64,000 nucleotides of DNA, taken from Eledone cirrhosa (lineage: Eukaryota). The DNA lies in the NCBI GenBank assembly GCA_964016885.1, contig OZ024740.1, forward strand, positions 70,246,001-70,310,000. The letters are read 5' to 3'. Positions 19,672 to 25,357 of the stretch are shown here, piece after piece. The notes under the pieces were generated by a model that was given only the letters and a program-made list of their open reading frames with translations, was not told the origin of the DNA and made no database searches. Numbering within the stretch: the first letter of the stretch is position 1; each line of letters opens with the position of its first letter. Position numbers and translations under genes: made by a program.

Positions 19672-19866
19672 ATAGGAAAAAGTATGACCCCGACGGCAGA
19701 GCTCAAGCCGTTTCGACGGCTATTTCTGGACTAGAAATAGCCGTCGAAACGGCTTGAGCTCTGCCGTCGGGGTCATACTTTTTCCTATTTTCCACTCTAC
19801 TACCCTAAGTATTGAGTACTCTGGTGCGTTATGGTCCATCTGGTTCCTTACCACAATTCCTTTGTT
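19672..19866. mobile_element. Asymmetric palindromic PLE-terminus insert pivoting in hammerhead stem II
   Basis: IR 19672-19788 centred at 19730; right arm has GAAAC GGC..GCC GTC (HHR 3' half); tail 19789-19866 with GTATTGAGTACTC; (TA)n on both sides. Confidence 0.75.
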
Positions 19867-20015
19867 ATATATATATATATATATATATATATATATATAT
19901 ATATATATATATATATATATATATATATATATATACTCTTTTACTCTTTTACCCTTTTACCTGTTCCAGCCATCCGTATATATATATATATATTTTTTTT
20001 ATTTTACAGAAGGAG

Positions 20016-20062
20016 CTTCTACAGGACTATTACTGTTTCATTCAGATGAAATCTTCAGGAAG
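20016..20062 (-). ncRNA. Type I hammerhead ribozyme
   Basis: CTTC CTGAAGA TTTCA TC TGAAT GAAA CAG..CTG TA GAAG on the minus strand. Confidence 0.75.
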
Positions 20063-20065
20063 GGG

Positions 20066-20112
20066 CTTCCTGAAGATTTCATCTGAATGAAACAGTACTA
20101 GTCCTGTAGAAG
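20066..20112 (+). ncRNA. Type I hammerhead ribozyme
   Basis: CTTC CTGAAGA TTTCA TC TGAAT GAAA CAG TACTAGTC CTG TA GAAG: stems I, II, III and a GUA site. Confidence 0.8.
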
Positions 20113-20845
20113 CTCCTTCTATAAAATAAAAAATTTTACTCTGCCATGTATTGAGTACCTTACTTACTGTGGTTATCCCCAACTCAACCCGAGACCTACG
20201 TATATATATATATATATATATATATATATATATATATATATATATATATATATATATGTATATAGCATTAATATAATTCCTGAGCCACCCATGTGTGAAA
20301 CGGTCATAACTATGTATTAATATAATCAATAAAGACCTCAATGTCAAACCTCACTTATATATATATATATATATGTGAGTGTGTGAGTGAGTGAGTGAGT
20401 GTGTGTGTGTGTGTGTGTGTGTGTGTGTGTGTGTGTGTGTGTGTGTGTGTGTGTGTGTGTGTGTGTGTGTGTGTGTGTGTGTGTGTGTGTGTGTGTGTGT
20501 GCGTGTGTGTGTGTATACATAATGATTTTCTGTCTTACCTTTGAGTCCTTACCATTTCGACATGTGGATGACTACATGTCACCTACTTACTATCAAAACA
20601 ATAATAGAGTAGACCCCCGTAGAGCAGATTACTAATCATGCGAGTACTCAATACGGGGAGACACGAGCCGCAACTGCTTGGCACTGCGGTTGAGATTTTA
20701 CATATCTCTCTCTCTCTGTCACCCCCACCCTCTCTCCGTATTATATATATATATGCATCTCCATCAATTGATAATGAATATACCGACTACTGAAAAAAAA
20801 ATTGATATAACACCTGACTCTATGCTGAAAATCTTGTCATTCTTA

Positions 20846-21225
20846 CCCTGTAAGGATGAAAGGCAAAGCTAACCTCAGTTCAAATCCCACTGAGGTTAGC
20901 TTTGCCTTTCATTCTTACGGGGTCGATAAAATAAAGTAGCATTAATACCCTGGGGTAATAGCTGGCCTTGTGCCAAAAGTAGAAACAAATATTATATAAC
21001 AGGCGGTGGATTGGCATTATTATATAACAGGGCGGTGGATTGGCAGTATCGGAAGAGGGTCGGGCGCCATGCTTTGACGCATAGAGTTACGGCCCTTGCC
21101 ATTCTGAGTTCAAATCCCGCCGAGGTTAACTTTGTCTTTCGTCCTTACGGGGTCGATAAAATAAAGTACCAGTAATACACTGGTTTATTGCTGGCCTTGT
21201 GCCAAACGTAGAAACAATTTTTATA
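20846..21225 (+). mobile_element. SINE cluster: fold-back partial copy plus full copy (21030-21225)
   Basis: Core and tail repeated twice; duplicated head GGCGGTGGATTGGCA at about 21002 and 21031. Confidence 0.8.
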
Positions 21226-21479: not shown

Positions 21480-22605
21480 ATGGGCCCAAACTATGCCAAC
21501 CTTTTTGTTGGCCATGTTGAGGCCCAAATCTTTGCCCAGTACACCGGCCCCACGCCCGAACTGTACGGTCGTTACATCGACGACTGTATCGGAGCCACGA
21601 CCCTCACCCGAGAACAGCTCGACTCCTTTCTCTCCTTCTTCTGCTCCTTCCACCCCTCCCTCCACTTCACCACCTCTATCTCTACCACCCACGTCCACTT
21701 CTTAGACATCTCCGTCGCCTTCGACCCCTCCCACCACTCCCTCGTCACCTCCGCCTTCTTCAAACCCACCGACTCCCACTCTTACCTCGACTTCACCTCT
21801 TCCCACCCCACACACACTAAACACTCCATTCCCTACTCCCAACTCCTCAGGATCCGCCGCCTCTATTGCCGAGATCCTGACTTCGAGTCCCAGGCCCTTT
21901 CCCTAGTCAACCATTTCATCCGCAGAGGTTACCCCCCACTCTCGTCCACACCGCTCTCACCCGCGTCCGTGCTGTACACCGCTCCGCCACCCTCACCCCA
22001 CGCCACGGCACACGCACCCACCGTCTCCTCTTCCCCATCACCTACCACCCCTCCACCATACCCCTCCACCGCACCATCCTCCGCCTCTTCCGACGCCTCC
22101 AGTCCGACCCCTCCATCTCCCACATCTTCCCATCCCCACCACTCCCCTCCTTCAAACGCGCACGCAATCTCCGCACCCTCCTCGTCCACAGCTCCCTACC
22201 CCCCAACCCACGCCCCCCCCCCCCGGTTCATTTCCCTGTTCTAGGCCCCGCTGCAACACCTGTCCCTACATCACCAACACCACCACCTTCCAGGGTCCCA
22301 ACGGCCACTCTCTCTCTGTCCGGCATGCCTTCCGCTGCACCTCCTCCAACCTAGTCTACGGACAGACTGGACGTCGCCTGGCGGACAGATTTACTGAGCA
22401 CCTCCGGGATATTCGTCTCGGTGGTAGTTCCCCCATCGCCCGCCACTTTGGTGCCCCTGGACATTCCGCACACCATCTCACAGTCTGTGGCCTACTCCAA
22501 TGCCACGGAACACCCGCCAATCTCCTAAGAGTTGAACAACGAACCATCTTCATCTTACAGACCCACACTCCCCCTGGCCTGAACTCCCCACCTTTATTCC
22601 ATTAG
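21480..22605 (+). pseudogene. PLE RT (C-terminal half) + Zn finger + GIY-YIG endonuclease, frameshifted
   Basis: MGPNYANLFVG, YGRYIDD, FLD, KPTDSHSYL, SIPYSQLLRIRR; after frameshifts near 21940 and later: PCSRPRCNTC..NLVY|GQTGRRLADRFTEH..PGLN. Confidence 0.85.
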
Positions 22606-23867
22606 CCTTCGACCGCCCCCCTCCCCCCACACCTATCCCACACTAACAACACTAACACACCCCTCCTTTTCACCGCCCACCCCACAATTAACAATACTAA
22701 CACCTCCACCCCACATCCGACCACTCTTCCCCAACTAACATACTAACATCCCTCCCTTCTTCTCCTCCCCCCTCCTTATCACACGCACACACCCACCGGC
22801 ACATATATACACGCGCTCAAACTAAACACACGCCCTACTACCACCACTAACCCTCACCCCCACACATCCACCCCATCACCCCGCAACTAACATCACTAAC
22901 ACCCCCTGACCCCAAGCACACGAACACACACACCCACTTACACTACCCACCCTACACGCAACTAACATCACTAACACCCCCCAACCCTACGCACACGTAC
23001 ACACAAACCCTTTTACACCACCCACTCTACACACCCTACCACCACTGACCCCCACTCACACCCGCATTCAACCCTTTCTCCACCTCCTGTATACTAACAC
23101 CCACTAACAGCCCCTTCACCAAACACACACACCAGTACACTACACTCCCTCCATCGGCCCGCACACACAGACACACAACACTCCTCCTGCCTTGACCCTC
23201 TGACCACTTCCTGTTGCGCGCGCACCCCACATCTCCCCTCTTCCGACTAATCTCTTCACGGATTACACGTATGTGAACCTTGATCCCGGAATCCACCACA
23301 TCCCAAGGATCTTACTAAGCATTCCACCACATCGTCTACGGAATTACCTTTATGACTCACCCACACACACACACACCCAAAAAAAATGTTTCCCACACGC
23401 CACCTACACCCACAACACGCATAAACACCACACACACACGTGCGTACCACCACATATTTACACATTCAGCCTCCGGAATCCTCTCCCCCTCCCACCCCTC
23501 TATCCACACACACACACACACTCTGACCTACACCACACCCCACACACACCTCTTCCTGAACATGCAACTCCGTTCTTCCCCCAACCCTTGCTTTCACATA
23601 CACACACACACACACGTACACCTACACACACACACCAACTTCAGCCCTCCACGCTCGGACACCCCGTCTCCCTCTCCCCACTCCACCCGCCACCACCCCT
23701 ACACGCCCCACACCCTTCCACCACCTGTTTTACTCCATTTTAATTTTATTTTGATCATGCCTTTATTTTTTATTTCATTTGCACCGTTTCCTCTCACCAC
23801 CTTTTTGCTATATGTCTCTCCACCACTCCCCTACACACCCTTTGAACTCTCTTCCCACACACTTTTC

Positions 23868-23899
23868 ACCTGAAGAAGGGCTTATGCCCGAAACGTCGT
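23868..23899 (+). ncRNA. Minimal hammerhead ribozyme (PLE pseudo-LTR type)
   Basis: AC CTGAAGA AGGG CTTATG CCC GAAAC GTC GT; loopless stem III of the kind proposed to work as dimers. Confidence 0.75.
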
Positions 23900-24030
23900 T
23901 CCCCATCACCACCCCACTCTCAAGAGCGTGAAATTAATAAACATTTGTTTGTACTGCCTCTCTGTTTTGTTCCCGTTCAATTTTTCATTATATATATATA
24001 TATATATATATATATATATATATATATATA

Positions 24031-24502
24031 TTTCGTTTCTGAATTTGTTTAGCAAGATTCTTTTTAAATAGAAAACATGAATGGAATAGCAACATCACAA
24101 CTTACAATTAAGGACAAAATGAAAACACACACACACATAGAACAAACAACCAACCAGTAACATGTAAATAAACAAATAAATAAACAAATATAAACACACA
24201 CAGACACCCGGATGTAACACATGCGCAAACTAAGCACACAACACACACAAAAACAAGATGGCGTAGGACAGAACAAAGGAGAGGCACAAAAACAAAGAAA
24301 AGAATCCCCAGTCACTGAAGAGGTCACAGAATGTGTGACGAAAGAACTTTGACAATATATAAACAATCGTCTGGTTATGGAACCAACCAAGCGGAAATTT
24401 ATAAATTCTTAAATTTATAAATTTAAATTATAATAAATTGAACTGAAAGCAACTGGTGCGTGTGTTTCTTATTGGCAACATGACCCTCCCAAAGTATAAC
24501 AA
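24031..24502 (+). mobile_element. PLE 3' fragment (same family as 39018-40238) with inverted tail cap
   Basis: 24064-24502 is closely similar to 39800-40238; begins TTTCGTTTCTGAATTTG; (TA)n on both sides. Confidence 0.88.
24311..24353 (+). ncRNA. Minimal type I hammerhead ribozyme
   Basis: GTCA CTGAAGA G GTCACA GAATG TGTGAC GAAA G AA C TT TGAC. Confidence 0.78.
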
Positions 24503-25152
24503 TATATATATATATATATATATATATATATATATATATATATATATATATATATATATATATATATATATATATATATATATATATATATATATATATA
24601 TATATATGTGTGTGAGGTTTGACATTGAGGTCTTTATTGATTATATTAAAATGACCGTTTCATAAATGGGTGGCTCAGGAATCATATTAGTGCTATAGAC
24701 CCGACTCAAGTCCGATCTGCTCATTAGACCTTTCAAACAAACAACACAAAATCTACTGAACTAATTATCGTTATTATGTGTGTGCGTGTGTGTGTGTGTG
24801 TATGTGTGTATGTGTTTGTGTGCGTATGTGTGTGTTCATAATTCTTGTAATCTAAATTCATCGATGAAATATATCGATTTCTGAAATATATCGATTTCTG
24901 TTTGTATATGTGGATGTGGGTTCTGACAGATGTGTGTCTTTGTTTGCAAGATGATGGGCGTAAAGACAATTTCAGCTCTCCTCTCTCTTTCTCTCTCTCT
25001 CTCTCTCTCTCTCTCTCTCTCTCTCTCTCTCTCTCTCTCTCTCTCTCTCTCTCTCTCTCTCTCTCTCTCCCGTATATATAAACACACACACACACATACA
25101 CACACACATATGTGTATATATGTAAGTATATATATATAAATATATATACTTA

Positions 25153-25357
25153 TATATTATAAAGAGTCGGGAACCGACGGCTGAGCTCTTGCCGTTTCAA
25201 CAGCTACTTCCAGACTGGAAATAATAGTTGAAACGGCAAGAGATCACAGCCGTCAGGTCCCGACTCTTTATAATATAAGTACACTCTACTATTCCAAGTA
25301 TCGAGTACTCTGTTGAGTAATGGCCTCACAAGCTTCAAAGTGATTCCATCGTCATTT
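25153..25357. mobile_element. Asymmetric palindromic PLE-terminus insert (related to 19672)
   Basis: IR 25153-25277 centred on CCAG-A-CTGG at 25214; GAAACGGC..GCCGTC; tail with GTATCGAGTACTC. Confidence 0.75.

What the first reader, a model, noticed from the sequence alone, without database searches (positions are those of the whole stretch)
19672..25357. Palindromes pivot at the hammerhead stem II loop and lack the CUGAnGA core
Seen: in 19672-19788 and 25153-25277 each arm reads [centre]-GAAAC GGC..GCC GTC, which is the HHR GAAA, stem III and GUC site. The symmetry centre (TTTCTGGA/CTAGAAA at 19730, TTCCAGA/CTGGAA at 25214) sits where stem II should be, and no CTGAnGA is present. Two separate, diverged insertions pivot at the same place. 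The 13403-13775 palindrome may be similar (centre hairpin followed by GAACC..GTC). Inference: cDNA folds back, or the two cDNAs anneal, through the self-complementary stem II. The ribozyme hairpin would then double as the resolution site.
Basis: partly seen in the sequence, partly recalled or inferred. Interest (0 to 1): 0.7.

Follow-up and report, generated by a model that had tools for sequence, protein, structure and literature searches.

The report
Penelope stubs mirrored inside a ribozyme
These two mirror-image DNA stubs are insertions of a very common Penelope-type jumping gene, and their centres fall inside a predicted self-cutting RNA, likely because the element's RNA starts at that spot and its first 60-140 bases were likely copied from both ends of one DNA cut, not because the ribozyme's hairpin pairs up.

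Summary
Both palindromes are real and carry the 3' half of a type I hammerhead. They are short insertions in (TA)n of a Penelope-like retrotransposon with Hydra-clade protein motifs; 12,010 exact relatives of the 19730 copy were counted. Long copies do have a core upstream: UUGAnAA (U3-A8) for the 19730 subfamily, CUGAUGA for the 25214 subfamily. It lies 45 nt before the pivot, behind a long stem II. Junctions are strongly clustered (58 of 100 arms end within 12 nt), but not by stem II annealing: the predicted product was found 0 times, and two other families pivot about 6 and 42 nt before their cores, about 30 nt behind a TATA box. The pivot is likely the capped transcription start (initiator-like YT/YC-AGTC, extra G), here inside loop II. 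Two run-off cDNAs, primed on both cut strands, were likely end-joined: 48 of 50 have one tail and one short end, either arm can be longer, and rare hybrids join two subfamilies. The layout is published; this mechanism was not found in my paper searches, but this scan reached it before on other DNA, in this genome too. No RNA data. 13403-13775 is not tied to this.

The parts
19672..19867 (.). Insertion 1: head-to-head stub of a Hydra-type Penelope-like element (young subfamily, long copies have a U3-A8 core), in (TA)n
19672..19732 (-). Short arm of insertion 1: from the inferred start (+1, A of AGTCC at 19732) to the short end (..TTCCTA)
   Evidence: start is inferred
19733..19867 (+). Tail arm of insertion 1: begins at +6 (1-nt overlap at 19733), passes the short-end site (19782-19787) and ends at the tail end (..CCTTTGTTA)
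19735..19773 (+). 3' half of a predicted type I hammerhead: stem II 3' strand 19735-19743, GAAA 19746-19749, stem III 19749-19767, predicted cut after C19768, stem I 3' strand 19769-19773; no core
19788..19867 (+). One-sided tail; equals the 5' leader of the next unit in tandem full-length copies
   Evidence: L272
25153..25360 (.). Insertion 2: same layout, older and diverged subfamily (best other copies 80-87% identical); long copies have CUGAUGA
25158..25216 (-). Short arm of insertion 2, reaching the homologous +1 (A of AGTCT at 25216)
25215..25360 (+). Tail arm of insertion 2, beginning at +4 (2-nt overlap CT); GAAAC 25230-25234, predicted cut after C25254; 3' end approximate
19995..20133 (.). 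Control case: palindrome of another family (C3-G8 core) that keeps the whole hammerhead in both arms and pivots just 5' of the core

Best explanation
The two palindromes are short head-to-head insertions of a Penelope-like retrotransposon with Hydra-clade motifs, and their centre likely marks the capped start of the element's RNA, which in this family lies inside loop II of a predicted hammerhead. Shown: layout, parent element, clustering of arm ends, one tail end plus one short end, matching subfamily marks in both arms. Inferred: the endonuclease nicks both strands of a (TA)n target; one reverse transcription starts at the tail end, the other at the short end, both in the 5' leader of the RNA; both run off at the 5' end after about 140 and 60 nt, sometimes copying the cap as an extra base; host end joining trims a few bases and fuses the two cDNA ends; fill-in gives the palindrome. 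Both cDNAs likely come from one RNA or one source copy, rarely from two. Because transcription would start 45 nt past the core, the 5' copy of the ribozyme would be an inert half and only the 3' copy could cut.
For: Parent: long copies continue 5' into an RT + C-terminal GIY-YIG ORF on the same strand; L272 holds a 3,118-bp tandem unit with a 786-codon open frame. Clustering: of the first 100 arms found with a 3' anchor (55,801 in the genome), 58 end at -4..+8, 2 at -5..-59, 15 run beyond -60, 25 end at +9..+41; exact counts fall from 26,181 to 11,582 when TTT is added before AGTCC. Promoter signs: TATTTA/TATTCA at -31 and CCAAT at -91/-89 in the two long copies that the script scored; TTAGTC/TCAGTC kept in both subfamilies while the rest of loop II differs. 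Two other families pivot about 6 and 42 nt before their cores, behind TATAAA at -24, -29, -30, -33 (4 templates) and -30 (3 templates); 14 and 15 of 30 sampled arms end at -4..+10. Extra base: in 2,726 palindromes whose arms both reach +1 (5,452 arms), a G that the element lacks precedes +1 in 817 arms against 223 for the control base, and in both arms at 248 loci against about 61 expected; an extra G marks a copied cap in L1 (PMC11702581, passage). Two cDNAs: 48 of 50 palindromes have one tail and one short end; the tail arm reaches further in 21, the short arm in 16, equal in 11; in both window copies the short arm reaches further. 9 of 13,447 palindromes are mixed at two subfamily marks, and 6 of the 9 are tail/short hybrids with further marks differing. 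In vitro, a PLE protein nicks and extends both strands, starts at two internal sites that bound the tail and is predicted to be a dimer (PMC11167929, parts 1-2).
Against: No RNA evidence for the start. The TATA-like element of this family is non-canonical, and I saw none at -30 in the 25214 subfamily (by eye). Among arms reaching +1 from both sides, 72 of the first 100 continue with the element's own T at -1, often to -3/-4, only 16 carry the extra G, and 10 carry a C (hand count), so starts would have to be spread over -4..+1. The boundary also coincides with the 3' strand of an apical hairpin in loop II. The commonest double-G centre (CAG/CTG) could also arise by local re-copying of +5..+7. 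Of 22 sampled copies that run from a scorable pLTR through the tail into the leader, 17 keep the core and promoter upstream rather than starting at +1 (four are one array), which needs read-through RNA or template jumps. Hybrids are rare and could be later gene conversion. One sub-lineage has a C3-A8 mismatch (5 of 53 long copies). Fold z-scores for the ribozyme are mixed: -3.4, -2.6, -0.4, -0.35, +0.5.
Confidence: 0.7

Rival explanations
1. Two cDNAs, but the common end is a reverse transcriptase stall at the structured or protein-bound loop II domain, not the RNA's 5' end.
For: The -4..+8 zone overlaps the 3' strand of the apical hairpin predicted in long copies; most two-sided arms end at -1..-4 rather than at +1.
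Against: Two other families pivot outside any ribozyme stem, about 30 nt behind TATAAA; the 25214 subfamily keeps the pivot at TC-AGTC with a different loop II; a stall does not explain the extra G.
Confidence: 0.1
2. One cDNA folds back or self-primes and the second arm is copied from the first (the published proposal is self-priming on an antisense template, PMC3846280); the short end is an endonuclease cut.
For: Arms almost always share subfamily marks (44 of 50 within one mismatch against 360 of 1,225 between loci; 9 mixed of 13,447); junction bases are often mirrored.
Against: The tail arm must be made first and reach furthest, yet the short arm reaches further in 16 of 37 unequal cases and in both window copies; six tail/short hybrids have arms from different subfamilies.
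Confidence: 0.11
3. One reading: cDNA folds or two cDNAs anneal through the self-complementary stem II, so the ribozyme hairpin is the resolution site.
For: The pivot lies within the stem II domain in both subfamilies, and stem II is real (82.7% of cells paired, 3 of 8 pairs with two-sided change).
Against: Predicted junction: 0 exact matches, while the same pattern stem matched 55 long copies among my loci, all continuing as the element. Only 2 of 100 arms end in the region holding the 5' strand. Centres vary, with 0-2 nt overlaps or small insertions. Other families pivot before the core.
Confidence: 0.02
4. The palindrome is itself a non-autonomous element (MITE or retrozyme-like) amplified as a unit from a few master copies.
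For: High copy number; a DNA search returned many copies with the same GGACT centre (biased by the query).
Against: The first 50 palindromes along C1 have many different centres, in both orientations relative to the tail; ends are unequal; a continuum leads to kilobase arms with ORF.
Confidence: 0.05

Closest known systems
EN+ Penelope-like element insertions with an inverted 5'-truncated pLTR and a one-sided tail (Adineta vaga Pen2a, PMC3846280; Craig et al. 2021, PMC8557442; D. virilis Penelope, PMC2377424; passages read)
   Same: Head-to-head inverted pLTR, tail at one end only, partial tandems, promoter and start inside the pLTR, microsatellite target
   Different: Tail about 80 nt rather than 30-40; most insertions are bare stubs without ORF; the papers ascribe the palindromes to self-priming or endonuclease resolution and, in the passages read, do not place the junction on the transcription start
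Hydra clade of C-terminal EN+ PLEs (PMC8557442 section 11; supplement lists Hydra-1_Obim)
   Same: DKT, RWR (for RWK), CxCx5C linker, CxxC and CxH near the C end, no two cysteines between GIY and YIG, (TA)n target, hammerhead in the pLTR
   Different: No tree and no sequence comparison with the named families was made; unit 3.1 kb against 'generally <3 kb'; core U3-A8 in one subfamily where the paper says canonical
PLE hammerheads, incl. the U3-A8 variant of Schistosoma Cercyon elements (PMC4209133, passages) and natural U3-A8 cores (PMC3088659, passages)
   Same: Type I topology, 4-5 bp stem I, long stem II, C3-G8/U3-A8 covariation
   Different: 5-bp stem III with a 9-nt loop, a 33-nt loop II domain, and a predicted promoter and start inside stem/loop II
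Poseidon element of Anolis in vitro (PMC11167929, parts 1-2 of 4)
   Same: Both strands nicked and extended; two internal start sites bound the tail; uncut RNA is the template
   Different: Other clade; that study did not address inverted junctions in the parts read
L1 twin priming and cap-derived G (PMC11702581, passages)
   Same: Both target ends prime; end joining with microhomology; extra G at complete 5' ends
   Different: L1's second primer copies an upstream part of the RNA, giving an inversion without duplication; here both cDNAs cover the same leader

Membership tests
EN+ Penelope-like element | Single ORF with RT and GIY-YIG endonuclease | tested here: met
   786-codon frame with YRDD and VIY..YIG motifs read by eye; Pfam and PDB gave no hit, so the domain call rests on motifs
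EN+ Penelope-like element | Tandem units with pLTR, inverted truncated copy, one-sided tail | tested here: met
Hydra clade | DKT in place of DKG, RWK motif | tested here: met
   SDKTGN and LRWRT (RWR) in P0001 against PMC8557442 section 11
Hydra clade | CxCx5C linker, no CCHH, CxxC and CxH around E and N | tested here: met
   CNCPDRSIC, one C between VIY and YIG, CNLC..E, N..CKH
Hydra clade | Insertion in (TA)n | tested here: met
Hydra clade | Phylogenetic grouping with named Hydra families | not tested
   no reference proteins were fetched
Type I hammerhead (long copies) | Core C3-G8 or U3-A8 with U4 G5 A6 A9 and GAAA fixed, N7 free | tested here: met
   21 aligned copies: C-G 10, U-A 8, other 3; U4 G5 A6 A9 and GAAAC invariant (rows were picked by core-like patterns); N7 takes all four bases
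Type I hammerhead (long copies) | Three stems around the core with covariation | tested here: met
   85.9% of cells paired against 30-52% for slid controls; 5 pairs with two-sided change; essentially two lineages, G10.1-C11.1 paired in only 67%
Type I hammerhead (long copies) | Self-cleavage after GUC | not testable with these tools
   needs an in vitro assay
Type I hammerhead (the two window copies) | Catalytic core present | tested here: not met
MITE / DNA transposon | Fixed symmetrical termini and one internal sequence per family | tested here: not met
   48 of 50 have unequal ends; centres vary
Pol II promoter at the pivot | Capped transcripts begin there | not testable with these tools
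   only indirect sequence signs

The most novel reading that the evidence does not exclude
Penelope integration is a two-ended reaction: a protein dimer primes both target strands at two fixed sites in the RNA leader and makes 'strong-stop' cDNAs that end at the cap, so the genome's >10,000 stubs are a base-resolution fossil map of transcription starts; and in this lineage the promoter has moved inside the hammerhead, so that the start site itself disarms the 5' ribozyme copy while the 3' copy stays whole.
Probability: 0.45. Interest if true: 0.65.

Novelty: new variant of a known kind. Interest (0 to 1): 0.45.

Why it matters
How Penelope-like elements make their inverted and tailed insertions is stated as open in the papers read (PMC8557442, PMC3846280, PMC11167929). 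These stubs give countable predictions that separate the models: either arm can be longer, rare two-subfamily hybrids exist, an extra G sits at the boundary, and a TATA box lies about 30 nt upstream in two other families. A start site inside loop II would also show a simple way to keep a hammerhead silent at one end of the RNA. The layout and the U3-A8 core are already published, so the value lies in the mechanism, not in the object.

Tried and rejected
Rfam scan of the window: no hammerhead among the 150 of 213 matches listed. Pattern for CTGAnGA within 30 nt of the anchor: 37 hits, mostly junction accidents or foreign sequence, not the true core. First hammerhead script missed the family through a non-greedy match (fixed). 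Pfam, PDB and phage searches with the protein: nothing; the Atlas gave no answer. RNA runs: no RNA holder listed; no reads were laid. The automatic ungapped end-caller misplaces some copies with indels or subfamily differences (some +34..+41 calls; the -39/-17 and +21..+55 calls), so those bins are approximate; six of the 30 famC arms are one repeated stretch. 13403-13775 as a family member: rejected. Assembly artefact: rejected, as arms carry independent substitutions and fixed unequal ends. Folding the leader from +1 gave an alternative hairpin over GAAA, but with z +1.2, so I give it no weight. Paper searches found no paper placing PLE inverted junctions on the capped start; the library lacks most subscription papers (Arkhipova 2006, Evgen'ev and Arkhipova 2005 not seen), and supplementary file S2 and figures of PMC8557442 were not seen and may show these Hydra hammerheads.
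Full report
OBSERVATION. Both palindromes are present as described. 19672-19788 has 56-nt perfect arms around GGACT; 25153-25277 is a decayed palindrome around TTCCAGA-CT-GGAA. Each right arm has GAAAC-GGC..GCC-GTC, and neither element has a C/T-TGA-n-G/A-A core on either strand. Both sit in TA-rich repeats and the right arm continues into a related tail of about 80 nt. The third palindrome (13403-13775) has only GAACC, no core and no second copy in a genome search (which may skip common words), so I do not link it.

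WHAT THEY ARE. The window lies in a 3-Gb, microsatellite-rich animal genome. The 19730 element has many near-identical copies; 12,010 palindromes match both inner arms exactly with a centre of up to 30 nt, and a 3' anchor finds 55,801 arms. Non-inverted copies continue 5' through an untranslated region into an RT and GIY-YIG frame on the same strand. L272 holds a 3,118-bp tandem unit; the tail is the leader of the next unit and the frame is open for 786 codons. The protein shows DKT, RWR, CxCx5C, CxxC/CxH and no CCHH, the marks given for the Hydra clade (PMC8557442 section 11); this is a motif match without a tree, and Pfam and PDB returned nothing. The 25214 element is an older subfamily of the same lineage.

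THE RIBOZYME. But long copies do carry a core 45 nt before the pivot: ACCCC-TTGAnAA-G in the 19730 subfamily (48 of 53 distinct long copies among my loci U3-A8, 5 with C3-A8; 5,354 long copies by exact pattern) and CTGATGA-type cores in the 25214 subfamily (34 pattern hits, part of them junction accidents). Long copies of the 19730 subfamily fold as a three-way junction in 3 of 4 cases, with mixed z-scores; the one older-subfamily copy folded gave stem II only. In 21 aligned copies the 3-8 pair is C-G in 10, U-A in 8, unpaired in 3, and 85.9% of cells pair against 30-52% for slid controls; rows were chosen by core-like patterns and represent about two lineages. U3-A8 cores are published, also for Penelope elements (PMC3088659, PMC4209133, passages). 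Cleavage is untested.

WHERE THE JUNCTIONS FALL. With +1 = A of AGTCC, the first 100 arms on C1 end at -4..+8 in 58 cases, at -5..-59 in 2, beyond -60 in 15 and at +9..+41 in 25 (ungapped calls, the last bin partly artefact). Exact counts drop from 26,181 to 11,582 across the three bases before +1. The junction that stem II annealing would leave has 0 exact matches, while the same pattern stem matches 55 long copies in my loci. Centres of the first 50 palindromes vary: 35 blunt or overlapping, 15 with inserted or mismatched bases.

WHAT SETS THE PIVOT. Two other abundant families were sampled (34,657 and 13,227 arms; first 30 each). One pivots about 6 nt before a CUGA(U/A)GA core (the window's 19995-20133 palindrome is an example), the other about 42 nt before a UUGAAAA core. 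In both, long copies have TATAAA about 30 nt upstream of the pivot (-24, -29, -30, -33; -30 three times), and 14 and 15 of 30 arms end at -4..+10 by the automatic call. In the finding's family the same place has TATTTA/TATTCA at -31 and CCAAT near -90 (two copies scored), and TT/TC-AGTC, like the insect initiator (consensus recalled, not from a call), is kept in both subfamilies; the older subfamily shows no TATA at -30. Among 5,452 arms in palindromes complete to +1 on both sides, a G absent from the element precedes +1 in 817, the control base in 223, and both arms carry it at 248 loci, about four times the number expected. In L1 such a G reflects the cap (PMC11702581, passage). Against this: 72 of the first 100 such arms continue with the element's own T, and the commonest double-G centre could come from local re-copying. 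Penelope start sites inside the pLTR are documented (PMC2377424, PMC8557442, passages). I infer that the pivot is the transcription start; a stall at the loop II hairpin remains possible.

ONE cDNA OR TWO. 48 of 50 palindromes have one tail end and one short end, so they are single concerted events. A fold-back must start at the tail and leave the tail arm longest; the tail arm is longer in 21, the short arm in 16, equal in 11, and in both window copies the short arm is longer. Arms nearly always share subfamily marks (44 of 50; 9 mixed among 13,447), which fits one RNA or one source copy and also fits fold-back; but 6 of the 9 mixed loci are tail/short hybrids with further marks differing, which fold-back cannot make, barring later gene conversion. 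A PLE protein in vitro nicks and extends both strands from two internal sites that bound the tail (PMC11167929, parts 1-2 read). The published proposal for such palindromes is self-priming on an antisense template (PMC3846280, passages). One result does not follow simply: 17 of 22 scorable copies that run on past the tail keep the upstream core and promoter, so full units mostly arise from read-through RNA or template jumps.

NOVELTY. The layout, the clade and the core variant are known. Eight paper searches found no paper that maps these junctions to the capped start; the bioRxiv retrozyme preprint was seen only as listing and two passages. I noted the start-site idea; one search then showed that other agents of this scan reached the same reading in this and other genomes, and that the Hydra and U3-A8 points were noted before. 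These are unchecked notes, not support. What this case adds is the start inside loop II, the direct exclusion of stem II annealing, the three-family TATA comparison and the hybrids.

VERDICT.

Noticed in passing
window 19995-20133: Palindrome of another family with a complete CUGAAGA hammerhead in each arm (GUA cut site); its tail resembles the finding's tail (CTCT..GTATTGAGTAC).
   Followed up: partly
window 38637-38653 and 38849-38865 (- strand): Two copies of a third family with a minimal U3-A8 hammerhead, just 3' (on the opposite strand) of the ORF at 38891-39847; 13,227 arms in the genome.
   Followed up: partly
window 21381-22605 and 23870-23900: Broken RT/GIY-YIG frames of a different Penelope-like element, C-rich 3' region, then a minimal CUGAAGA hammerhead; lies between the two palindromes and is unrelated to them.
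   Followed up: no
window 24316-24345: CTGAAGA..CGAAAG hammerhead-like motif of a further repeat family (also seen in L034, L040).
   Followed up: no
window 13403-13775, 26019-26189, 30461-30603, 35604-36115: Other long palindromes or inverted repeats; 13403-13775 had no second copy in the genome search; none matched a hammerhead core in my scan of the window.
   Followed up: partly
window 20845-20923: Short palindrome made from a SINE-like repeat, pivoting at TCAAATCCC (B-box-like, recalled).
   Followed up: no
G000:C1 arms (e.g. 1021999, 3670317, 9590781, 10307036, 10679264): About 5 of 100 arms begin within 4 nt of the predicted ribozyme cut; could be cut RNAs used as templates or calling artefacts.
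   Followed up: no
L168, L205, L239 and many rows: Runs of T inserted just before +1, suggesting slippage or A-tailing at the cDNA 3' end.
   Followed up: no
L158, L202, L203, L013: A sub-lineage with CTGAGAA (C3-A8 mismatch) that still amplified, hinting that cutting is dispensable.
   Followed up: partly
L282:1500-2150: Tandem array of a 257-nt unit (about -5 to just past the start codon), a retrozyme-like short repeat made from the leader.
   Followed up: no
window 9150-12344 (-), 54910-55587 (+), 56807-58996 (-): Non-LTR retrotransposon frames (1,064, 225 and 729 codons).
   Followed up: no
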